Below the pieces are notes generated by a model. That model made no database searches. It was not told the DNA's origin and saw nothing but the letters and a program-made list of their open reading frames with translations. Positions 13,025-37,851 of a DNA stretch of 64,000 bases are shown here, in pieces. A program made the position numbers and the translations under genes. Position 1 is the first letter of the stretch, and each line of letters opens with the position of its first letter. The stretch is taken from assembly GCF_002854065.1 (NCBI RefSeq), contig NZ_CP024147.1; one strand, written 5' to 3'. The DNA is from Escherichia coli (GTDB taxonomy: Bacteria > Pseudomonadota > Gammaproteobacteria > Enterobacterales > Enterobacteriaceae).

Positions 13025-13395
13025 TGCCGTGAAGTGCGGCACCCCGTAGGTTGGATAAAGCGGTCACGCCGCATCCGACATCTAACGCCCGAGCCGGTTG
13101 CCTGATGCGACGCTGACGCGTGTTATCAGGCCTACACCGCTGTGAAGTGCTCCACCCCGTAGGTCGGATAAGGCGGTTACGCCGCATCCGACATCCAACG
13201 TCCGAGCCGGTTGCCTGATGCGACGCTGACGCGTCTTATCAGGCCTACACCGCTGTGAAGTGCGGCACCCCATAGGTTGGATAAGGCGGTTACGCCGCAT
13301 CCGACATCCAACGCCCGAGCCGGTTGCCTGATGCGACGCTGGCGCGTCTTATCAGCATACGCCACATCCGGCATACCATGCCGGATGTGGCACAT
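13025..13395. repeat. REP/BIME array: about three tandem copies of a ~114-bp unit rich in imperfect palindromes, between convergent eco and mqo
   Basis: Repeated motifs (gccgcatccgacatc..., gcctgatgcgacgctg.cgcgtcttatcaggcctac) read directly; spurious ORFs in the track show the repeating MRRNRLIRPTG peptide. Confidence 0.85.
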
Positions 13396-21250: not shown

Positions 21251-21397
21251 AACTTTTTAAGATTATTACGGAATGGCGAAATAAGCACCTAACATCAAGC
21301 AATAATAATTCAAGGTTAAAATCAATAACTTATTCTTAAGTATTTGACAGCACTGAATGTCAAAACAAAACCTTCACTCGCAACTAGAATAACTCCC

Positions 21398-21490
21398 GCT
21401 ATCATCATTAACTTTATTTATTACCGTCATTCATTTCTGAATGTCTGTTTACCCCTATTTCAACCGGATGCCTCGCATCCGGTTTTTTTT
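21398..21490 (+). ncRNA. micF: MicF antisense sRNA (93 nt)
   Basis: Sequence GCTATCATCATTAACTTTATTTATTACCGTCATTCATTTCTGAATGTCTGTTTACCCCTATTTCAACCGGATGCCTCGCATCCGGTTTTTTTT, ending in its own hairpin plus U-tract; divergent from ompC. Confidence 0.9.
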
Positions 21491-21801: not shown

Positions 21802-24474
21802 ATGCGTCAGAAAGAGACAACGGCCACGACCCGCTTTTCACTCCTACCGGGGAGCATTACCCGCTTCTTTTTACTGTTGATCATTGTGTTACTGGTGACG
21901 ATGGGGGTAATGGTACAAAGCGCCGTTAACGCCTGGCTGAAAGATAAAAGTTACCAGATTGTCGACATTACCCACGCAATCCAAAAGCGCGTCGATACCT
22001 GGCGTTACGTGACCTGGCAGATCTACGACAACATTGCCGCGACGACCTCCCCCTCCTCCGGCGAAGGTTTACAAGAGACGCGCCTGAAACAGGATGTCTA
22101 CTATCTGGAAAAACCGCGCCGCAAAACGGAAGCGTTAATCTTTGGCTCTCACGACAACTCAACGCTTGAGATGACTCAACGGATGTCCACCTATCTGGAC
22201 ACATTGTGGGGCGCAGAAAATGTACCGTGGTCGATGTATTACCTGAATGGTCAGGATAACAGTCTGGTGCTGATCTCAACCCTGCCCCTCAAAGATCTCA
22301 CCTCCGGATTTAAAGAATCGACCGTCAGTGACATTGTTGATTCACGTCGTGCAGAGATGTTGCAACAGGCCAACGCCCTCGATGAACGCGAAAGTTTTTC
22401 TAACATGCGCCGCCTGGCCTGGCAGAACGGTCATTACTTTACCTTGCGTACCACGTTCAACCAGCCGGGACATCTGGCAACGGTTGTGGCTTTTGATCTG
22501 CCGATTAATGATTTGATCCCACCGGGTATGCCGCTGGACAGTTTCCGCCTTGAGCCAGACGCGACGGCAACGGGAGACAATGATAATGAGAAAGAAGGGA
22601 CGGATAGCGTCAGTATCCACTTTAACAGTACGAAGATTGAAATCTCCTCGGCACTCAACTCTACCGATATGCGACTGGTCTGGCAGGTTCCTTATGGCAC
22701 CTTATTGCTGGATACGTTGCAAAACATTCTGCTGCCACTGCTGCTGAACATCGGTTTGCTGGCGCTGGCGTTATTTGGCTATACCACATTCCGCCATTTC
22801 TCCAGTCGCAGTACAGAAAGTCTACCCAACACGGCGGTCAATAACGAATTGCGCATTTTACGGGCAATCAATGAAGAGATAGTCTCACTGCTGCCGCTCG
22901 GCCTGCTGGTTCACGATCAGGAATCGAACCGCACTGTCATAAGTAACAAAATTGCCGATCATTTGCTGCCGCATTTGAATCTGCAAAACATCACCACCAT
23001 GGCGGAACAGCATCAGGGGATTATTCAGGCGACGATCAATAACGAGCTGTATGAGATCCGCATGTTCCGCAGCCAGGTCGCGCCGCGCACACAAATTTTC
23101 ATTATTCGCGATCAGGATCGCGAAGTGCTGGTAAACAAGAAACTCAAGCAGGCGCAGCGTCTGTATGAGAAAAACCAGCAGGGGCGGATGACCTTTATGA
23201 AAAACATTGGCGATGCGCTGAAAGAACCTGCACAGTCCCTGGCGGAGAGCGCGGCTAAACTCAACGCCCCGGAAAGCAAACAACTGGCGAATCAGGCAGA
23301 TGTGCTGGTGCGGCTGGTCGATGAAATACAGTTAGCGAACATGCTTGCGGACGATAGCTGGAAAAGTGAGACGGTGCTGTTCTCCGTGCAGGATTTAATT
23401 GATGAAGTTGTGCCTTCAGTGTTGCCTGCCATCAAGCGTAAAGGTCTGCAACTGCTGATTAACAATCATCTGAAAGCACACGATATGCGCCGCGGCGATC
23501 GCGATGCCTTACGACGTATTTTGCTGCTACTGATGCAATATGCCGTGACCTCAACGCAATTGGGAAAAATCACCCTTGAGGTTGATCAGGATGAGTCCTC
23601 CGAAGACCGCCTGACGTTCCGCATTCTGGACACCGGAGAAGGCGTAAGCATTCATGAAATGGATAATTTGCACTTCCCGTTTATCAACCTGACCCAAAAC
23701 GATCGCTATGGCAAGGCGGACCCGCTGGCATTCTGGCTGAGCGATCAACTGGCACGTAAACTGGGCGGTCATTTAAACATCAAAACGCGGGATGGGCTTG
23801 GTACACGCTACTCTGTGCATATCAAAATGCTCGCAGCTGACCCGGAAGTTGAAGAGGAAGAAGAGCGTTTACTGGATGATGTCTGCGTAATGGTGGATGT
23901 TACTTCGGCAGAAATTCGGAATATTGTCACTCGCCAGTTAGAAAATTGGGGTGCAACCTGTATCACACCCGATGAAAGATTAATTAGTCAAGATTATGAT
24001 ATCTTTTTAACGGATAATCCGTCTAATCTTACTGCCTCTGGCTTGCTTTTAAGCGATGATGAGTCTGGCGTACGGGAAATTGGGCCTGGTCAATTGTGCG
24101 TCAACTTCAATATGAGCAACGCTATGCAGGAAGCGGTCTTACAATTAATTGAAGTGCAACTGGCGCAGGAAGAGGTGACAGAATCGCCTCTGGGCGGAGA
24201 TGAAAATGCGCAACTCCATGCCAGCGGCTATTATGCGCTCTTTGTAGACACAGTACCGGATGATGTTAAGAGGCTGTATACTGAAGCAGCAACCAGTGAC
24301 TTTGCTGCGTTAGCCCAAACGGCTCATCGTCTTAAAGGCGTATTTGCCATGCTAAATCTGGTACCCGGCAAGCAGTTATGTGAAACGCTGGAACATCTGA
24401 TTCGTGAGAAGGATGTTCCAGGAATAGAAAAATACATCAGCGACATTGACAGTTATGTCAAGAGCTTGCTGTAG
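21802..24474 (+). CDS. rcsD: Phosphotransfer intermediate protein RcsD
   Basis: 890-aa ORF with N-terminal transmembrane segments and C-terminal HPt-like region; located upstream of rcsB. Confidence 0.92.
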   Translation: MRQKETTATTRFSLLPGSITRFFLLLIIVLLVTMGVMVQSAVNAWLKDKSYQIVDITHAIQKRVDTWRYVTWQIYDNIAATTSPSSGEGLQETRLKQDVYYLEKPRRKTEALIFGSHDNSTLEMTQRMSTYLDTLWGAENVPWSMYYLNGQDNSLVLISTLPLKDLTSGFKESTVSDIVDSRRAEMLQQANALDERESFSNMRRLAWQNGHYFTLRTTFNQPGHLATVVAFDLPINDLIPPGMPLDSFRLEPDATATGDNDNEKEGTDSVSIHFNSTKIEISSALNSTDMRLVWQVPYGTLLLDTLQNILLPLLLNIGLLALALFGYTTFRHFSSRSTESLPNTAVNNELRILRAINEEIVSLLPLGLLVHDQESNRTVISNKIADHLLPHLNLQNITTMAEQHQGIIQATINNELYEIRMFRSQVAPRTQIFIIRDQDREVLVNKKLKQAQRLYEKNQQGRMTFMKNIGDALKEPAQSLAESAAKLNAPESKQLANQADVLVRLVDEIQLANMLADDSWKSETVLFSVQDLIDEVVPSVLPAIKRKGLQLLINNHLKAHDMRRGDRDALRRILLLLMQYAVTSTQLGKITLEVDQDESSEDRLTFRILDTGEGVSIHEMDNLHFPFINLTQNDRYGKADPLAFWLSDQLARKLGGHLNIKTRDGLGTRYSVHIKMLAADPEVEEEEERLLDDVCVMVDVTSAEIRNIVTRQLENWGATCITPDERLISQDYDIFLTDNPSNLTASGLLLSDDESGVREIGPGQLCVNFNMSNAMQEAVLQLIEVQLAQEEVTESPLGGDENAQLHASGYYALFVDTVPDDVKRLYTEAATSDFAALAQTAHRLKGVFAMLNLVPGKQLCETLEHLIREKDVPGIEKYISDIDSYVKSLL

Positions 24475-24490
24475 CAAGGTAGCCTATTAC

Positions 24491-25141
24491 ATGAACAATA
24501 TGAACGTAATTATTGCCGATGACCATCCGATAGTCTTGTTCGGTATTCGCAAATCACTTGAGCAAATTGAGTGGGTGAATGTTGTCGGCGAATTTGAAGA
24601 CTCTACAGCACTGATCAACAACCTGCCGAAACTGGATGCGCATGTGTTGATTACCGATCTCTCCATGCCTGGCGATAAGTACGGCGATGGCATTACCTTA
24701 ATTAAGTACATCAAGCGCCATTTCCCAAGCCTGTCGATCATTGTTCTGACTATGAACAACAACCCGGCGATTCTTAGTGCGGTATTGGATCTGGATATCG
24801 AAGGGATCGTGCTAAAACAAGGTGCACCGACCGATCTGCCGAAAGCTCTCGCCGCGCTGCAGAAAGGGAAGAAATTTACCCCGGAAAGCGTTTCTCGCCT
24901 GTTGGAAAAAATCAGTGCTGGTGGTTACGGTGACAAGCGTCTCTCGCCAAAAGAGAGTGAAGTTCTGCGCCTGTTTGCGGAAGGCTTCCTGGTGACCGAG
25001 ATCGCTAAAAAGCTGAACCGCAGTATTAAAACCATCAGTAGCCAGAAGAAATCTGCGATGATGAAGCTGGGTGTCGAGAACGATATCGCCCTGCTGAATT
25101 ATCTCTCTTCTGTGACCTTAAGTCCGGCAGATAAAGACTAA
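24491..25141 (+). CDS. rcsB: Response regulator RcsB (LuxR/FixJ family)
   Basis: Start at MNNMNVIIADDHP (codon 16 of track ORF 24446..25141), giving 216 aa; receiver domain plus C-terminal HTH. Confidence 0.95.
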   Translation: MNNMNVIIADDHPIVLFGIRKSLEQIEWVNVVGEFEDSTALINNLPKLDAHVLITDLSMPGDKYGDGITLIKYIKRHFPSLSIIVLTMNNNPAILSAVLDLDIEGIVLKQGAPTDLPKALAALQKGKKFTPESVSRLLEKISAGGYGDKRLSPKESEVLRLFAEGFLVTEIAKKLNRSIKTISSQKKSAMMKLGVENDIALLNYLSSVTLSPADKD

Positions 25142-25144
25142 TCA

Positions 25145-25458
25145 TCTGTAGGCCAGATAAGACGCGTTAGTGTCTTATCTGGCATTTGCACCGATTGCCG
25201 GATGCGGCGTAAACGCCTTATCCGTCCTACGATTCCCATTATTTCAACAGATTACATTAAAGTAGGCCAGATAAGACGCGTCAGCGTCGCATCTGGCATT
25301 TGCACTGAATGCCAGATGCGGCGTAAACGCCTTATCCGTCCTACGATTCCCATTATTTCAACAGATTACATTAAAGTAGGCCAGATAAGACGCGTCAGCG
25401 TCGCATCTGGCATTTGCACTGAATGCCAGATGCGGCGTAAACGCCTTATCCGTCCTAC
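25145..25458. repeat. REP/BIME array: two perfect tandem copies of a 114-bp unit plus a partial copy, between convergent rcsB and rcsC
   Basis: Units at about 25231..25344 and 25345..25458 are identical; the track's 91-aa ORF across them shows a 38-aa peptide repeated exactly. Confidence 0.85.
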
Positions 25459-28304
25459 GAATCCCGCGATTTCCTGACCCTCTCGGCATATACCGTCAGC
25501 GTCTGTTTTATCACATCCAGCGTTACCGGCTTCGACAGGCAGCTGTCCATACCGGACTCCAGACACCGCTGCTTCTCTTCAGCCAACGCATTAGCAGTTA
25601 CTCCGATTACCGGCAACGTCAGTCCCAACTGACGAATGCGTTGCGTCAAGCGGTAACCATCCATATTTGGCATGTTGACGTCGCTAAGCACGATATCAAT
25701 ATGATTCTTGCTAAGTACATTAAGCGCATCGACGCCATCATTCGCGGTTTTACATTGATAGCCCAACGATCCCAACTGATCTGCCAGCAGACGTCGGTTA
25801 ATCGGATGATCATCCACGACCAGAATCATCATATCGTCATTATCGCTGACCGCTTTGTCCGTCGACGGCAGAGCGTTAGCAGGATCGTCGCTCTCCATCT
25901 CGATCAAATAAATACGCGCCAACAATGCCGGTAGCTCATGCGGAGCAGCCACACTGTGTACCCACTCCCCTGGCGCTTTCTCCAGCGGAATACCAATATG
26001 TCGACGACAGAAGGTCACTACCGCTCTGCCCTGCCATTTTTTACTCACTACCTCGTCAGTGATTAACACATCTTCGGGAGTCGGTTCCTGCCCTTCGTAT
26101 GTTGTAACGACGATGCCGCTGCGCTGCAAACTGGTTTCCAGGAACTGACAGAGCGACGCATTGCGGACCGCCAGCCAGCAGCGTTTACCACTCAGCCCTT
26201 CCACGCCTTTTTTCTGCGGGTACTGAGCGCCGTACAACGGAATACGCACGGTAAACTGGCTGCCCATTCCCGGTTCTGAATCTACCGAGATGTCGCCGTC
26301 CATCATGCTGATCAGTTTTTCACAAATCGCCAGACCCAGACCGGTCCCCTGGAAGTTTCGCTGTACGCCCGTTCCGACCTGGAAGAAGGGATCAAACAAG
26401 CGCACCACTTCTTTCGCCGGAATCCCCACGCCGGTATCGCGAACACGGATAGAGAGATAATCGCCATCAGCGCGGACATGCAAAACTATACAGCCGGTAT
26501 CAGTGAATTTTATGGCGTTACTCAACAGGTTGGAGATGACCTGCTGTAAACGCATCGGGTCGCCATTTAAAGCCACTGGCACATCCGGTTCAATAAAGCA
26601 GTACAAGCCTAACTGCTTGCGTACCACCAGCGGTAAATAGTTGGCGGTGATGTGGTTCATCACTTCACGCGGTGAAAACTCACGCGGTTCGATCTTCAAC
26701 TGTTCCGATTCAATCTTCGAGAAATCGAGAATATCGCTGATAATTTTCAACAACAGGCTGGAAGAGTTGTTCATTGCCGTCACCAGACGATCGACGCCTT
26801 TCGGTAACTCTTTGGTTTGCAACAGATCCAGGTTACCGATAATGCCATACAGCGGCGTTCGCAGCTCATGACTGACGGTGGCAAGGAACATCGATTTTGA
26901 CTGGCTCGCCTGTTCCGCTGCTTGTGCCATCTCCTGCAACGACTCTTCCATCTTCACGCGCGAAGAAACATCCACCAGCACACAAATGGCCACGTTTTCA
27001 TTACGATAGCGCGAATGGACGAAGCTGATTTGCAGATTGGTATTGTTGCTGGTCAGGACATCAACAAAATTGACCTGCTGCCCACAGATAATTTGTGTCA
27101 GCCGTTGGCGGTCCTCATGCGTAAGCATATTGAGATAGGTATGCGCCAGTTCGTTACTTAAAATATTGACGCCATCTGCGGTACGCAAAATACAGATACC
27201 CACTGGCGCGGAGGCGACAATCTTGCGGTTAAACTGCTCATGTTCTTCCAGTCGCAGGGCATCGCTTTCCGCCGGAATGAAAATACGCCGCTCGTACATC
27301 CGCGCGAGAGTAAACAATGCAGCTCCAGCAAGCACATTCAGCAAAATTGCGTTAAGGATCAACATGCGAATGCGTTCCAGCACCTTATCAACCGGCACCG
27401 AATAAACGATGCTTAGCGATGAGGGAGGCAGATTTTTCTTCAGCACCAGCTCCCGGAAACCTTCCGTATAGCCAAACCAGGAGCGTTCCTGCATCCAGCG
27501 AGGATCGCCCTTAATTTTGCTTTCTGGTCCGGTAAGCGAAATCAGGGTATGACCATTTTCATCAAGAATGGTAACCCCCATCGGCAACGTACCCGGTAAG
27601 AAAAAATTCTCCATCCGGATGGTCTGCTCGACACCCAAAAGCGCCTGCAACCTGTTCGCCAGATAAACTGGCGTCAACGCGTAAAAATACCCGACGCCAG
27701 GGCGCGGACCTTCGCTGATCCAGTAGAGGTTACTGCCGCTATCATCTTGTGGTGCATTTCGATATTTATTGATGCGTTCATGCAACGCTTTCAACGCGGT
27801 ATCGCGTTCCACTGGCATATCACGCAGACCGAAATTGGCCATGCAGAGGTTATCGCTGCCGATTAAAAATACCCGGTTGAGATCGTAAGCCGCAGAAAAA
27901 TTATCGCGCCAGTAGCGCATAAACCACGCCAATGACTCCAGAGAACCTCGCCAGGTGTTACTCATTGCGGAACAATCGGAGTCGGCAAACAGCGGTTCAA
28001 ACGCAGGCACATCCGCCTGCGTTTCTCGTCCACGCGGGGAAAGCACACCGTTTTCTGCCGATAAGCGATTTTCAGCGATGTACTTCAGCTCTTTCATCAC
28101 ATCAGAGGTGCGTTGAATAAAGCGCTGAGCCTGATCGGAACTCAGATTAAATTCCTGACGAATTTCCGATTCTCGCTGATGTAACGCATTAACGATGTAA
28201 AAAACGGATGAAAAAGCAATCAACAGCCAGAGCACTAACGCCAATGCTCTGAACATGTAGCGCGAGGCTTTCAGGGTTGTACGAAAAGAAGCAAGGTATT
28301 TCAA
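25455..28304 (-). CDS. rcsC: Hybrid sensor histidine kinase RcsC
   Basis: 949-aa ORF with periplasmic sensor, HisKA (SHELRTP), ATPase domain, and C-terminal receiver (VDDHPINRRL...DVNMP). Confidence 0.95.
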   Translation of the reverse strand: MKYLASFRTTLKASRYMFRALALVLWLLIAFSSVFYIVNALHQRESEIRQEFNLSSDQAQRFIQRTSDVMKELKYIAENRLSAENGVLSPRGRETQADVPAFEPLFADSDCSAMSNTWRGSLESLAWFMRYWRDNFSAAYDLNRVFLIGSDNLCMANFGLRDMPVERDTALKALHERINKYRNAPQDDSGSNLYWISEGPRPGVGYFYALTPVYLANRLQALLGVEQTIRMENFFLPGTLPMGVTILDENGHTLISLTGPESKIKGDPRWMQERSWFGYTEGFRELVLKKNLPPSSLSIVYSVPVDKVLERIRMLILNAILLNVLAGAALFTLARMYERRIFIPAESDALRLEEHEQFNRKIVASAPVGICILRTADGVNILSNELAHTYLNMLTHEDRQRLTQIICGQQVNFVDVLTSNNTNLQISFVHSRYRNENVAICVLVDVSSRVKMEESLQEMAQAAEQASQSKSMFLATVSHELRTPLYGIIGNLDLLQTKELPKGVDRLVTAMNNSSSLLLKIISDILDFSKIESEQLKIEPREFSPREVMNHITANYLPLVVRKQLGLYCFIEPDVPVALNGDPMRLQQVISNLLSNAIKFTDTGCIVLHVRADGDYLSIRVRDTGVGIPAKEVVRLFDPFFQVGTGVQRNFQGTGLGLAICEKLISMMDGDISVDSEPGMGSQFTVRIPLYGAQYPQKKGVEGLSGKRCWLAVRNASLCQFLETSLQRSGIVVTTYEGQEPTPEDVLITDEVVSKKWQGRAVVTFCRRHIGIPLEKAPGEWVHSVAAPHELPALLARIYLIEMESDDPANALPSTDKAVSDNDDMMILVVDDHPINRRLLADQLGSLGYQCKTANDGVDALNVLSKNHIDIVLSDVNMPNMDGYRLTQRIRQLGLTLPVIGVTANALAEEKQRCLESGMDSCLSKPVTLDVIKQTLTVYAERVRKSRDS

Positions 28305-31009: not shown

Positions 31010-36141
<5,132 letters not shown>

Positions 36142-36162
36142 TCAGCGCCAGCAGCCCGTGCC

Positions 36163-37851
36163 TCATAGCGGCTGCCAGGCTATGGTTAGCCACTGCCAGG
36201 CGGCACCGGGTTCCATCTGGGCCAGCTTCATGACATAACGCGGTTGTTGAGATAAAGCGTCCAGCTTCGGCATTAATAAAGTTTGTGCGGCGTTATAAAA
36301 AACCGGTTCGAGATTCTTCGGCAGACTGGTCAGCGTTTCGTTACGCAGCAGTTTCGCCACGCCTTGTGGATTGATATAGAGCGGAACGATGCCATCTGTG
36401 GGTATTACATCCACCATTGCCGGGCGGGTTTTATTCAGTGTTTGCAGGGCGTTATTAACCAGCGTGTCATCGAGGGAGAAAAGCAGCGTTTTGTTTTGCA
36501 TCGCCAGCGACACGCGGAAAAAATAATCCGACATTAATTGATCGGGTTGCACCGCCTGCGCTTTCGGATACTGACCGTACCGGGAACTCACTTCGCGACG
36601 CCAGATTTGCGCTTCGCCTTGCTGAGTCTGGCTTACCGGCAAAACACCTTCTGGCGCTTTGCTTTCGTGCGCGCCAATATTTTGCGTAAACAGTTTCCCT
36701 GGCAATTGCGCCTGTTCGGCAGTGCCATCAAACTGACCGACAAACAGCGGGGTTTGCAATTTTGAGTCTGCATACCAGCACAGCCCCGCGGCACCGTCCA
36801 ACGCCCCATTCAACTTGTCGTTTTCCTGGCTGATGTGCGAAAGCATCTCTTCGGCAATACCGTGTGAATACGGCACCGCCACACAGAAGCTGGCCCCGGC
36901 AGGCATACTGTTCCAGACCGGCGTAAAATCGAAACTGGCATCTACGCTGGCGGATTCATCATTTAACGCCACAAAACTGTGCCAGCCGTCGTTACCCATT
37001 TCGAAGCGTACGCCAGCAAAAGAAGGCATTAATCGCTGGTAGCCAAACCCCAGCAACCTGGCGCTGACTACGATACGCTGGCGTACTGGCGTTTTTTCGG
37101 CAGCACGCTCTTCCAGGCCAAAGCTGGCTTGCCAGCGTTTTTTGCCGCTCAACAAATCGCTTGCGATCGCCGTGGCTTCGGTATCCTGCTGATCATCTTT
37201 AAACAGCATATCCGTGCTGGAAAACACCAGCATCTTGTCCTGATATGTCGCGAACATCAGGGCGTTATTGCCGTTATAGCGCAACTGATAAACAGGAATA
37301 GTTTCACTATTTATCTTGATGCTACTGATTTCCGTTTTGCTTAACTGGCTATCGCTGGTAGCAGCAAACAGCAATGGCTCCAGCAGTTTGCTTAAACCAC
37401 TGCGTTGGATCAGCACCATGTAATGTGAAAGATGGCCTTGTTTATCGTGCCATAGCGCCGCCTGCGCGGGCTGATCTAAGAGTGACGAAAAGAGTTTATC
37501 TTTCAGCGTGAGATCGTGTTCATAGACAATGCGGCGAATGCTGCCTTCAATGCCCAGACGATCGGCATGATTCTGATAATAGAAAACGAAATCTTCGCTA
37601 AGAACATCGTGGAGAAACGGAATGGTGAGGAGATCTTTGGGAAGCTGGCTCAGAGAGTCGCTGTCGAGAAAGAGGTCTGGCTCATTGAGATCGATTTGCA
37701 GATTGTTGTGCACCACCAGCGGCGACAACGTTTTTTCTGGCCCACTGCCAGCATATTGCAACGCCCAGACGCCAGCGGAAAGCAGTACTATTGCGCCAAA
37801 ACCTACAAGACCATAGAACCGCCAGCCTTTCGCCTTTTTTTCACCACTCAT
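36163..37851 (-). CDS. yfaA: YfaA (DUF2138 family as recalled), first gene of the cluster
   Basis: Track ORF 36163..37899; start placed at MSGEKKAKGWRF (codon 17), giving 562 aa with an N-terminal transmembrane/signal segment. Confidence 0.85.
   Translation of the reverse strand: MSGEKKAKGWRFYGLVGFGAIVLLSAGVWALQYAGSGPEKTLSPLVVHNNLQIDLNEPDLFLDSDSLSQLPKDLLTIPFLHDVLSEDFVFYYQNHADRLGIEGSIRRIVYEHDLTLKDKLFSSLLDQPAQAALWHDKQGHLSHYMVLIQRSGLSKLLEPLLFAATSDSQLSKTEISSIKINSETIPVYQLRYNGNNALMFATYQDKMLVFSSTDMLFKDDQQDTEATAIASDLLSGKKRWQASFGLEERAAEKTPVRQRIVVSARLLGFGYQRLMPSFAGVRFEMGNDGWHSFVALNDESASVDASFDFTPVWNSMPAGASFCVAVPYSHGIAEEMLSHISQENDKLNGALDGAAGLCWYADSKLQTPLFVGQFDGTAEQAQLPGKLFTQNIGAHESKAPEGVLPVSQTQQGEAQIWRREVSSRYGQYPKAQAVQPDQLMSDYFFRVSLAMQNKTLLFSLDDTLVNNALQTLNKTRPAMVDVIPTDGIVPLYINPQGVAKLLRNETLTSLPKNLEPVFYNAAQTLLMPKLDALSQQPRYVMKLAQMEPGAAWQWLTIAWQPL

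What the first reader, a model, noticed from the sequence alone, without database searches (positions are those of the whole stretch)
25145..25458. Exact 114-bp tandem duplication of a REP-containing unit at the rcsB / rcsC convergent junction
Two copies at about 25231..25344 and 25345..25458 are identical, preceded by a partial copy, and the array runs up to the rcsC stop codon. Perfect identity suggests a recent duplication. REP/BIME arrays at convergent gene ends can act as mRNA stabilisers, terminators, or gyrase/IHF binding sites, so copy number here could affect rcsB or rcsC 3'-end processing. The eco-mqo array (13025..13395) has a similar ~114-bp periodicity but with diverged copies.
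Basis: seen in the sequence. Interest (0 to 1): 0.3.

Follow-up and report, generated by a model that had tools for sequence, protein, structure and literature searches.

The report
Extra REP/BIME repeat between rcsB and rcsC
This is an ordinary E. coli REP/BIME repeat array between two convergent genes that gained one extra identical 114-bp unit by a recent local duplication, a well-known kind of strain-to-strain variation that probably has little effect.

Summary
A period-114 array spans 25148..25476, and 25201..25460 (260 bp) is a perfect period-114 repeat.

Each unit is a Z2-type REP, an 11-nt spacer, an inverted Y-type REP and a 31-nt linker. This is BIME-2 architecture: all three REP pairs match Rfam RF02564 full length, above its threshold.

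The array fills the rcsB-rcsC gap. The rcsC TAG stop lies inside the GTAG of the last REP.

Unit counts in 5,426 complete E. coli genomes:
- two units, about 81%, including K-12
- one unit or none, about 18%
- three units, about 30 genomes
- four units, 2 genomes

The exact-duplicate allele occurs only in CUWW06, XJ34 and XJ6-3. Strain 100416 carries the exact two-unit parent allele. The middle unit is a chimera whose junction falls in a 32-nt identical stretch. This points to unequal exchange or slippage, although transposase (RAYT) action is not excluded.

The REPs nearest each gene are unchanged, so I expect little functional effect. The array most likely works as a two-way 3'-end hairpin block and partial terminator.

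Verdict: already known and of low interest.

The parts
24491..25141 (+). rcsB coding sequence. The TAA stop is at 25139-25141. The first REP hairpin starts 10 nt downstream.
   Evidence: ORF list; translation ends ...SPADKD*; RefSeq annotation of the near-identical CUWW06 record.
25148..25261 (.). Unit 1 (U1), the diverged full-length copy. Z2-type REP 25148-25184, here a perfect palindrome with 12-nt arms at 25152-25163 and 25172-25183. 11-nt spacer 25185-25195. Inverted Y-type REP 25196-25230. 31-nt inter-unit linker 25231-25261.
   Evidence: In-register print-outs; inverted repeat I8; Rfam RF02564 hit 25151-25227 on the minus strand, 73.7 bits; fold.
25262..25375 (.). Unit 2 (U2), the extra copy. 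It is a chimera. Its left 85 nt equal U3 at all 7 diagnostic sites, and its linker equals the U1 linker. Z2 REP 25262-25298, spacer 25299-25309, Y REP 25310-25344, linker 25345-25375.
   Evidence: The two-unit strains 100416 and TUM13936 lack exactly 114 bp here. Rfam RF02564 hit 25265-25341 on the minus strand, 73.8 bits.
25376..25458 (.). Unit 3 (U3), the rcsC-proximal REP pair. Z2 REP 25376-25412, spacer 25413-25423, Y REP 25424-25458. Its terminal CCTAC (25454-25458) holds the rcsC stop codon.
   Evidence: Rfam RF02564 hit 25379-25455 on the minus strand, 73.8 bits.
25201..25460 (.). Stretch of perfect period-114 identity (260 bp).
25315..25346 (.). The 32-nt interval within which the duplication junction must lie. 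It is equivalent to 25201-25232 in U1 and 25429-25460 in U3. It holds the 3' half of the Y REP, including the CC|TAC motif.
   Evidence: Positions of the diagnostic mismatches and comparison with the two-unit parent allele of strain 100416. CC|TAC is a TnpA_REP cleavage site according to PMC3333891.
25459..25476 (-). The last codons of rcsC (...K S R D S). This stretch is homologous to the first 16 nt of the inter-unit linker, so the linker holds a relic of the rcsC 3' end.
   Evidence: CGATTCCCATTATTTC (linker) against CGAATCCCGCGATTTC here: 12 of 16 identical in the same register after CCTAC. Against CGATTCCCGCGATTTC in strains 042 and EC0585 it is 13 of 16.
25455..28304 (-). rcsC coding sequence. 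The TAG stop is at 25457-25455, inside the GTAG of the last REP.

Best explanation
What it is. This is a BIME-2-type array: tandem pairs of inverted Z2 and Y REP palindromes. It occupies the whole gap between the convergent genes rcsB and rcsC of E. coli. The window carries three units where most strains carry two.

How the extra unit arose (inferred). It came from a recent local duplication. Misaligned exchange, either unequal sister-strand recombination or replication slippage, occurred between the Y REP of the rcsC-proximal unit and the Y REP of the rcsB-proximal unit. The exchange fell within a 32-nt stretch where the two are identical. The product is a middle unit that is U3 on its left and U1 on its right. 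It is therefore identical to its neighbour over 260 bp.

How the array works (inferred from family knowledge, not shown here). Once transcribed from either side, the REP hairpins form very stable stem-loops in the 3' UTRs of both mRNAs. These block 3'-to-5' exonucleases and partly stop read-through, in part through Rho, into the opposing gene. The hairpins start 10 nt after the rcsB stop and at the rcsC stop itself. They therefore also meet the published condition (under 16 nt) for REP-dependent ribosome stalling and reduced translation.

Effect of the duplication. It adds two internal hairpins and leaves both gene-proximal REPs untouched. It is most likely a nearly neutral copy-number variant, with at most a slightly stronger barrier between the two genes.
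For: Anatomy and exactness.

REP/BIME-2 identity:
- GTAGG/CCTAC ends and imperfect palindromes are present.
- All three pairs match Rfam RF02564 full length (model positions 1-77) at 73.7-73.8 bits, above the gathering score of 59.5. RF02564 is a Y plus Z2 pair modelled on REP325. The same family matches the eco-mqo and nrdA-nrdB arrays.
- The definition of BIME-2 and its between-strain copy-number variation are given in PMC3333891.

Census of 5,426 complete genomes:
- The locus-specific linker occurs in 4,436 genomes, at 4,470 places, at most 3 per genome, and never elsewhere.
- A synthetic four-unit query separates 29 three-unit and 2 four-unit records.
- In a spread sample, 47 of 58 records have two units and 11 of 58 have one.

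Recency and parent allele:
- Strain 100416 equals the window's array minus 114 bp, with 6 substitutions in 7.5 kb.
- XJ34 shares the duplication.

Chimeric junction.

Homology-driven dynamics at this locus: the other three- and four-unit alleles carry differently mosaic units.

Structure:
- Fold z-scores are -11.3 (plus strand) and -8.9 (minus strand).
- The U2 and U3 pairs each fold as one hairpin of -52 kcal/mol (plus) and -49 kcal/mol (minus).
- No intrinsic terminator was found in 24400-26000.

Function of REPs at 3' ends and between convergent genes: bioRxiv 10.64898/2026.03.23.713779. The under-16-nt rule is taken from PMC12306157, which cites Liang et al. 2015.
Against: - No expression, 3'-end or protein data for this locus were available, so every functional step is inferred from the family.
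- The 2026 preprint stresses that REP effects depend on context, and that constructs of 2-4 hairpins did not respond to Rho inhibition while the 12-hairpin REP325 did. Going from 4 to 6 hairpins could therefore matter more than I assume.
- The junction interval contains a TnpA_REP cleavage motif (CC|TAC). A transposase-mediated origin cannot be separated from homologous exchange on sequence alone.
- The flanking SNP tree of window, XJ34 and 100416 is star-like. Loss of a unit in 100416, rather than gain in the others, is not excluded.
- The inter-unit linker is unique to this locus. I could not compare it with the canonical s, l and r motifs of BIME-2.
Confidence: 0.8

Rival explanations
1. 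The extra unit was made by the REP-associated tyrosine transposase (TnpA_REP, also called RAYT). It would cut at the CC|TAC site of the inverted Y REP and rejoin strands between neighbouring units, rather than by homology-driven slippage or unequal exchange.
For: - TnpA_REP cleaves at CC|TAC and at C|T sites in linkers. In vitro it joins products into multi-REP assemblies, proposed as a route to BIME amplification (PMC3333891).
- The 32-nt junction interval here (25315-25346, equivalent to 25429-25460) contains GTCC|TACG, which fits the published site II consensus.
- The Z2 REPs of U2 and U3 keep the stem mismatch needed for TnpA_REP binding.
Against: - In vivo amplification by TnpA_REP has not been demonstrated (PMC8266576; preprint section 45).
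- The junction sits in a perfectly homologous 32-nt tract inside 86-nt repeats that are about 92% identical, which is enough for slippage or recombination (my own background knowledge).
- Other alleles at this locus have patchy mosaic units (T16R, M18, MS 115-1, CH4799). That pattern is typical of gene conversion, not of single cut-and-join events.
- Whether the source strain carries rayT was not checked.
Confidence: 0.12
2. Three units is the older state in this small lineage, and the two-unit allele of the nearest relative (100416) arose by deletion. The window would then retain a unit rather than have gained one.
For: - The 7.5-kb flanking SNPs give a star-like tree for window/CUWW06, XJ34 and 100416, with no site uniting the two duplication carriers.
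- Contractions clearly happen at this locus. There are two different one-unit alleles, YDC107 and EC0585.
Against: - All more distant relatives at 99.1-99.3% identity have two units, so a gain still has to be placed just below this node.
- The middle unit is exactly the chimera predicted from the 100416-type U1 and U3, and is still 100% identical to its neighbours.
- The allele is present in only 3 of 5,426 genomes.
Confidence: 0.1
3. The copy number is functional and under selection. Adding a unit would change termination, antisense read-through or gyrase binding between rcsB and rcsC, and so tune the Rcs envelope-stress phosphorelay.
For: - Long REP arrays give ladders of truncated transcripts, and Rho inhibition increased read-through of the 12-hairpin REP325 but had no effect on the 2- and 4-hairpin constructs.
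- REPs between convergent genes correlate with higher expression of both genes.
- BIME-2 Y REPs are preferred gyrase cleavage sites (PMC6379681).
- Expansions to three or four units arose at least twice independently.
Against: - Alleles with three or more units are rare, at about 0.6%, and scattered across hosts and sources. That fits mutation-drift rather than selection.
- The REPs next to each stop codon are unchanged.
- RcsB and RcsC proteins in CUWW06 have the same accessions as in two-unit strains. RcsB is WP_001061917.1 throughout, and RcsC WP_000876013.1 also occurs in TUM13936.
- There are no expression data.
Confidence: 0.05
4. The duplication is an assembly or sequencing artefact.
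For: Tandem repeats are a classic source of mis-assembly.
Against: - The same three-unit allele is found in the window and in three independently assembled complete genomes from Thailand and China.
- Other three- and four-unit alleles exist in about 28 further records.
- The repeat (342 bp in all) is shorter than long reads and than typical paired-end inserts (my own background knowledge).
Confidence: 0.01

Closest known systems
The rcsB-rcsC intergenic BIME of E. coli K-12 MG1655 (same locus, two units, 199-bp intergenic region)
   Same: - Same genes and same position.
- Same unit architecture and same locus-specific 31-nt linker.
- Same overlap of the last REP with the rcsC TAG stop.
   Different: - The window has one more 114-bp unit (313-bp intergenic region).
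- There are a few point differences in the REPs (GCCAGATG against GCCGGATG; CCGTCCTAC against CCGGCCTAC).
BIME-2 arrays (Gilson, Bachellier, Hofnung; reviewed in Ton-Hoang et al. 2012, PMC3333891), e.g. REP325 between yjdM and yjdN, which has 12 hairpins
   Same: - Alternating Y and Z2 REPs with a short spacer.
- Tandem units that are well conserved within a locus.
- Copy number that varies between strains.
- Location in a 3' UTR.
   Different: - The inter-unit linker is unique to this locus and carries a relic of the rcsC 3' end. I could not compare it with the canonical s, l and r motifs.
- The Z2 REPs carry a compensated T-A to A-T swap (CCAGAT...ATCTGG instead of CCTGAT...ATCAGG).
- The array sits between convergent genes, whereas REP325 sits inside an operon.
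Rfam RF02564, naRNA4 (nucleoid-associated noncoding RNA 4, one Y plus Z2 pair of REP325)
   Same: Each of the three REP pairs matches the whole model above its gathering score on the rcsC-sense strand.
   Different: - The family in effect describes any BIME-2 pair. It also hits the eco-mqo and nrdA-nrdB arrays in this window.
- The nucleoid-compaction role behind the name was not reproduced in the 2026 preprint.
- A match therefore says 'BIME-2 pair', not 'nucleoid RNA gene'.
REPIN/RAYT systems (REP doublets forming hairpins, associated with a domesticated tyrosine transposase)
   Same: U2 and U3 each fold as one long hairpin made of two inverted REPs flanked by GTAG/CTAC. This is the substrate type of TnpA_REP.
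   Different: - There is no evidence here that the transposase made this copy.
- The U1 Z2 REP is a perfect palindrome. It lacks the stem mismatch that TnpA_REP needs for binding.
BIME-1 / RIB / RIP elements (Y plus Z1 REPs around a conserved long linker with an IHF site)
   Same: - A long (31-nt) linker lies between the GTAG ends of neighbouring REPs.
- It contains a near-consensus IHF-like motif, TTTCAACAGATTA (the consensus is recalled from memory).
   Different: - There is no Z1 REP.
- The units are tandemly repeated, whereas BIME-1 elements are single.
- The linker is not the conserved genome-wide L motif. It occurs only at this locus.

Membership tests
REP (palindromic unit) elements of E. 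coli | Conserved GTAG tetranucleotide next to the foot of the palindrome | tested here: met
   All six REPs carry GTAGG (Z2 side) or CCTAC (Y side) at their outer ends. Definition from PMC3333891.
REP (palindromic unit) elements of E. coli | Imperfect palindrome of 30-40 nt with a mismatch in the stem | tested here: met
   REPs of 35-37 nt fold as hairpins with an internal mismatch. The exception is the U1 Z2 REP, which has become a perfect palindrome (inverted repeat I8).
REP (palindromic unit) elements of E. coli | Extragenic and highly repeated in the genome | tested here: met
   The array lies between two stop codons, and only the last 4 nt overlap rcsC. The 701-bp query finds a median of 19 places per E. 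coli genome. Further copies lie in this window at about 13.0-13.4 kb and 48.4-48.6 kb.
BIME-2 | Made of Y and Z2 REPs in opposite orientation, separated by a short spacer | tested here: met
   Full-length matches (1-77 of 77) to the Y plus Z2 covariance model RF02564 at 73.7-73.8 bits, above the gathering score of 59.5, for all three pairs. The spacer is 11 nt. The units align with the canonical Y and Z2 REPs of the eco-mqo array.
BIME-2 | Occurs as tandem copies that are well conserved within a locus | tested here: met
   2.8 copies at 96% matches, with 260 bp perfect.
BIME-2 | Number of tandem units at a locus varies between strains | tested here: met
   One to four units across 5,426 complete genomes.
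BIME-2 | Inter-unit motif of type s, l or r | not testable with these tools
   The consensus sequences of these motifs were not available to me. Bachellier et al. 1994, 1997 and 1999 are not held. The 31-nt linker here is specific to this locus, so the array might formally be classed as 'atypical'.
BIME-2 | Bound and cleaved by DNA gyrase in vivo | not testable with these tools
   Known for a subset of BIME-2 elements (PMC6379681). This locus was not looked up in that data set.
BIME-1 / RIB / RIP | Y plus Z1 REPs, single copy, conserved L linker with an IHF site | tested here: not met
   The REPs are Y plus Z2 and tandemly repeated. The linker is found only at this locus. It has only one near-consensus IHF-like motif.
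Rfam RF02564 naRNA4 | Score at or above the curated gathering threshold | tested here: met
   73.7-73.8 bits against 59.5 on the minus strand. On the plus strand the score is 52.5, below threshold. The nucleoid-associated function is not implied and is disputed.
REP-dependent translational down-regulation (Liang, Rudd and Deutscher 2015) | [quoted passage not shown] | tested here: met
   For rcsB, the TAA ends at 25141 and the hairpin starts at 25152, a gap of 10 nt. For rcsC, the TAG is inside the GTAG at the base of the hairpin, a gap of 0 nt. The rule is taken from PMC12306157. The actual effect on RcsB or RcsC was not tested.

The most novel reading that the evidence does not exclude
The rcsB-rcsC BIME may act as a copy-number 'dial'. 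Frequent gain and loss of 114-bp units (one to four seen in nature) would change how well convergent transcription is stopped and how stable the two mRNAs are. That would shift the RcsB:RcsC ratio and hence the set point of the Rcs envelope-stress, capsule and biofilm pathway. Together with the REP-supplied rcsC stop codon, RcsC output would then be governed by a mobile-element-derived 3' end.
Probability: 0.05. Interest if true: 0.4.

Novelty: already known. Interest (0 to 1): 0.1.

Why it matters
It matters little. Between-strain variation in BIME-2 copy number has been described since the 1990s (cited in PMC3333891), and this locus behaves as expected.

The useful by-products are modest:
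- a clean, dated example of a single-unit expansion, with the exact parent allele identified and the junction narrowed to 32 nt
- a census of unit number at one locus in 5,426 genomes
- the observation that the E. coli rcsC stop codon is supplied by the REP's GTAG, and that the inter-unit linker preserves a relic of the rcsC 3' end

If copy number did tune Rcs signalling, it would be a simple natural example of regulatory variation without any promoter or coding change. Nothing here argues for that.

Tried and rejected
- Intrinsic terminators and promoters. None were found in 24400-26000, so the REP hairpins are the only obvious 3' structures.
- BIME-1/IHF reading. Rejected because there is no Z1 REP, the units are tandem and the linker is specific to this locus. 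The single IHF-like motif is kept only as a lead.
- The name of the Rfam hit ('nucleoid-associated RNA'). I read it as 'Y plus Z2 pair' only, because the same model hits other BIMEs in the window and the nucleoid role was not reproduced in 2026.
- The right half of the linker as a relic of the rcsB 3' end. Only 6 of 15 positions match, which is not convincing (my inspection of the sequences printed). The left half against the rcsC 3' end (12-13 of 16, same register) I accept.
- Outgroups.
  - It gave one divergent Escherichia genome (L014), plus Citrobacter, Enterobacter and others, but no E. albertii, E. fergusonii or Salmonella. The ancestral unit number therefore stays unresolved.
  - It did show that the convergent arrangement is general, with a median gap of 61 bp in 69 loci, and that REPs at this junction are limited to a few close genera.
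- Literature on this specific locus. Nothing relevant was found.
- Primary papers not held. These are Liang et al. 2015, Liang and Deutscher 2016, Bachellier et al. 1997 and Gilson et al. 1991. Their content is cited second-hand.
- The 91-aa ORF 25202..25477 running through the array. Treated as spurious, because it is made of REP sequence and is not annotated in RefSeq.
- 'Window = CUWW06'. Rejected after a base-by-base comparison found 16 substitutions and a 28-bp insertion in 50 kb. The '100.0%' was rounding.

Full report
**Observation.**
- The perfect period-114 identity is longer than reported. It runs from 25201 to 25460, which is 260 bp.
- Tandem Repeats Finder calls 25148..25465, period 114, 2.8 copies, 96% matches. 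The repeat finder gives three in-register copies starting at 25148, 25262 and 25376.
- The longest exact direct repeat is 146 nt, against at most 11 nt in shuffles.
- rcsB ends with TAA at 25139-25141. rcsC is the minus-strand ORF 25455..28304.
- The array therefore fills the whole 313-bp convergent gap and overlaps the rcsC stop.

**Anatomy.** Read from GTAGG, each 114-bp unit has four parts:

| Part | Length | Sequence |
|---|---|---|
| Z2-type REP | 37 nt | GTAGGCCAGATAAGACGCGTCAGCGTCGCATCTGGCA |
| Spacer | 11 nt | TTTGCACTGAA |
| Inverted Y-type REP | 35 nt | TGCCAGATGCGGCGTAAACGCCTTATCCGTCCTAC |
| Inter-unit linker | 31 nt | GATTCCCATTATTTCAACAGATTACATTAAA |

- U1 (25148-25261) differs from U2 at 7 sites. 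Its Z2 REP has become a perfect palindrome (inverted repeat I8).
- U2 (25262-25375) and U3 (from 25376) are identical up to 25460.
- On the rcsC strand the sequence reads ...AAA TCG CGG GAT TCG TAG GAC GG. The G of the last sense codon plus the TAG stop form the conserved GTAG of the last REP.
- The first REP hairpin starts 10 nt after the rcsB stop.

**What it is.**
- All three REP pairs match Rfam RF02564 (naRNA4) over the whole model at 73.7-73.8 bits, above the gathering score of 59.5, on the rcsC-sense strand. RF02564 is one Y plus Z2 pair of the model array REP325.
- The same family matches the eco-mqo array (13162-13245 and 13275-13357) and the nrdA-nrdB element (48437-48507).
- Ton-Hoang et al. 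2012 (PMC3333891) define BIME-2 as Y plus Z2 REPs with a short spacer, present in tandem copies that are well conserved within a locus and variable in number between strains. Every one of those features that I could test is met.
- The similar period of the eco-mqo array (113 bp) reflects this shared architecture. The REPs align but the linkers do not.
- The sequence folds far better than shuffles, with z = -11.3 on the plus strand and -8.9 on the minus strand.
- The U2 and U3 pairs each fold as one long hairpin of about -50 kcal/mol. U1 folds as two separate REP hairpins.
- No intrinsic terminator or sigma-70 promoter pattern lies in 24400-26000.

**Population census.**
- The 31-nt linker is specific to this locus. 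A 39-nt query finds it in 4,436 of 5,426 complete E. coli genomes, at 4,470 places in all, at most three per genome, always chromosomal and never elsewhere.
- A synthetic four-unit query separates 31 records with full coverage. Two have four units (MS 115-1 and CH4799) and 29 have three.
- An evenly spaced sample of the ranking gave two units in 47 of 58 records, including K-12, and one unit in 11 of 58. The K-12 MG1655 gap is 199 bp.

| Units | Share of complete genomes |
|---|---|
| one or none | about 18% |
| two | about 81% |
| three | about 0.5% |
| four | 2 genomes |

- The allele with two identical copies is found only in CUWW06 (Thailand, wastewater) and in XJ34 and XJ6-3 (China, bovine).
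- The window is a very close relative of CUWW06 but not identical to it. It differs by 16 substitutions and one 28-bp insertion in 50 kb.

**Origin of the extra unit.**
- Strain 100416 (Gambia) has the same U1 and U3 as the window, base for base, but only two units. Over 7.5 kb it differs from the window by 6 substitutions and the 114-bp gap.
- The window's middle unit equals U3 at all seven sites that distinguish U1 from U3, and it carries the U1 linker. The novel junction must therefore lie in the 32 nt where U1 and U3 are identical (25201-25232, equivalent to 25429-25460).
- This is the product expected from one misaligned exchange or slippage event between neighbouring units (inference).
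- The same interval holds GTCC|TACG, which fits the TnpA_REP site II consensus. A transposase-made copy is therefore not excluded.
- I rank that second, for two reasons.
  - In vivo amplification by this enzyme is unproven.
  - Other alleles at this locus show patchy mosaics typical of conversion. The middle unit of T16R and M18 mixes U1 and U3 characters, the two four-unit alleles differ again, and there are two kinds of one-unit allele.
- Expansion to three units therefore happened at least twice.
- The flanking SNPs give a star-like tree for window/CUWW06, XJ34 and 100416. 'Gain before the CUWW06-XJ34 split' is the simplest reading, but loss in 100416 cannot be ruled out.

**Older history.**
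- The first 16 nt of the linker (CGATTCCCATTATTTC) match the last 16 nt of rcsC at 12-13 of 16 positions, in the same register after CCTAC (CGAATCCCGCGATTTC here; CGATTCCCGCGATTTC in strains 042 and EC0585).
- I read this as a relic of the rcsC 3' end, copied when the first duplication was made (inference).
- The two-unit state is old. It is present with a diverged linker in strains 042, TA8571 and C21. It is also present in a divergent genome labelled E. coli (L014, RcsC C-terminus 96.5% identical), where the first unit has collapsed to a single hairpin.
- In 69 other Enterobacterales loci rcsB and rcsC are also convergent, but the median gap is 61 bp. REP-like GTAGG/CCTAC pairs appear only in some Citrobacter and one Enterobacter.
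- RcsC ends ...RVRKSRDS-TAG in E. coli but ...RVRKTRG-TAA in Citrobacter. This is consistent with the REP having replaced the original stop region.

**How it most likely works.** None of this was measured at this locus.
- REPs in 3' UTRs protect upstream mRNA from decay and attenuate transcription, partly through Rho.
- About 60% of E. coli REPs lie between convergent genes. There they are proposed to act as two-way terminators and degradation blocks, and they correlate with higher expression of both genes (bioRxiv 10.64898/2026.03.23.713779).
- REPs closer than 16 nt to a stop codon stall ribosomes and lower translation (Liang et al. 2015, as cited in PMC12306157). Both rcsB (10 nt) and rcsC (0 nt) meet that condition.
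- BIME-2 Y REPs are also favoured gyrase cleavage sites (PMC6379681).
- The duplication leaves the REP next to each stop codon unchanged and adds only two internal hairpins. I therefore expect a nearly neutral variant, or at most a slightly better barrier to convergent read-through.
- One caution applies. In the preprint, Rho inhibition increased read-through of the 12-hairpin REP325, while the 2- and 4-hairpin constructs did not respond. An effect of going from 4 to 6 hairpins is therefore not excluded.

**Verdict.**
- The element is a known kind at a known locus, and copy-number polymorphism of such arrays is textbook for E. coli. Novelty: already known. Interest: low.

**Limits.**
- There are no expression data.
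- The outgroup scan was truncated.
- The canonical s, l and r linker motifs could not be compared.

Noticed in passing
window 44867-44922 (inside yfaL, minus strand; the CUWW06 CDS corresponds to 41637..45371): An exact 28-bp tandem duplication (CATTAGCGATGTTATTGCGAAACACGGC, two copies, 100%) that the closest complete genome, CUWW06, lacks. Because 28 is not a multiple of 3, it splits the autotransporter adhesin gene yfaL/ehaC into ORFs 44878..45399 and 41637..45020. The 12 top-ranked complete genomes all lack it, but ties in the ranking prevent a full count.
   Followed up: partly
window 1-50000 against NZ_CP182139.1 3084528-3134527 (L096): The window is not identical to any complete genome searched. 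It differs from CUWW06 by 16 scattered substitutions plus the 28-bp insertion. Three of the substitutions (21617, 23690, 28640) are private to the window relative to CUWW06, XJ34 and 100416.
   Followed up: partly
window 13029-13355 (between eco and mqo): A second BIME-2 array, period 113, 2.9 copies, 93% matches, in the opposite orientation to the rcsB-rcsC array. It has two Rfam RF02564 hits on the plus strand. Its REPs align with those of the rcsB-rcsC units but its linkers do not.
   Followed up: partly
window 48389-48557 (between nrdA and nrdB): A REP array of period 87, 1.9 copies, with an RF02564 hit at 48437-48507 on the minus strand. The nrdAB REP is mentioned in PMC12306157 as the transcript used to show REP-dependent translational control.
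   Followed up: no
window 25242-25254 and 25356-25368: Each 31-nt inter-unit linker contains TTTCAACAGATTA, one mismatch from the IHF consensus WATCAANNNNTTR (consensus recalled from memory). From the density of such matches in the window, about 0.02 would be expected per linker. The motif region is kept, with changes in the N positions, in K-12 and strain 042.
   Followed up: partly
window 25152-25183: The Z2 REP of unit 1 is a perfect palindrome (12-nt arms, 100% complementary). It has lost the stem mismatch that TnpA_REP needs for binding and cleavage according to PMC3333891. The same variant is copied into the middle units of the T16R, M18 and MS 115-1 alleles.
   Followed up: partly
window 25455-25460; L015, L018, L019, L025: The E. 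coli RcsC C-terminus (...RVRKSRDS, TAG) is one residue longer than in Citrobacter and Enterobacter (...RVRKTRG or ...RVRKTRV, TAA). Its stop codon is part of the REP GTAG, which suggests the REP remodelled the gene end.
   Followed up: partly
L014 (NZ_JAATUR010000027.1, labelled E. coli SCPM-O-B-8794), rcsB-rcsC gap of 154 bp: In this divergent genome the first unit is collapsed to a single hairpin (GCAGGCCAGATAAG...CTTATCTGGCCTAC). It is followed by the same linker and a full REP pair. This looks like a deletion between the two inverted REPs of one unit.
   Followed up: no
window 21397-21490 (+): The MicF antisense RNA lies upstream of ompC, as expected for this region (Rfam RF00033, 116.8 bits).
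   Followed up: no
window 35548-36166 (-): yfaT is annotated as a frameshifted pseudogene in the near-identical CUWW06 record.
   Followed up: no
window 42545-42602 and 60804-60865: Short in-frame-sized tandem repeats. The first (periods 18 and 30) lies inside yfaL. The second has period 24 and 2.6 copies.
   Followed up: no
window 25202-25477 (+): A 91-aa ATG ORF runs through the REP array. It is created by the repeat and is not annotated in RefSeq, so it was treated as spurious.
   Followed up: no
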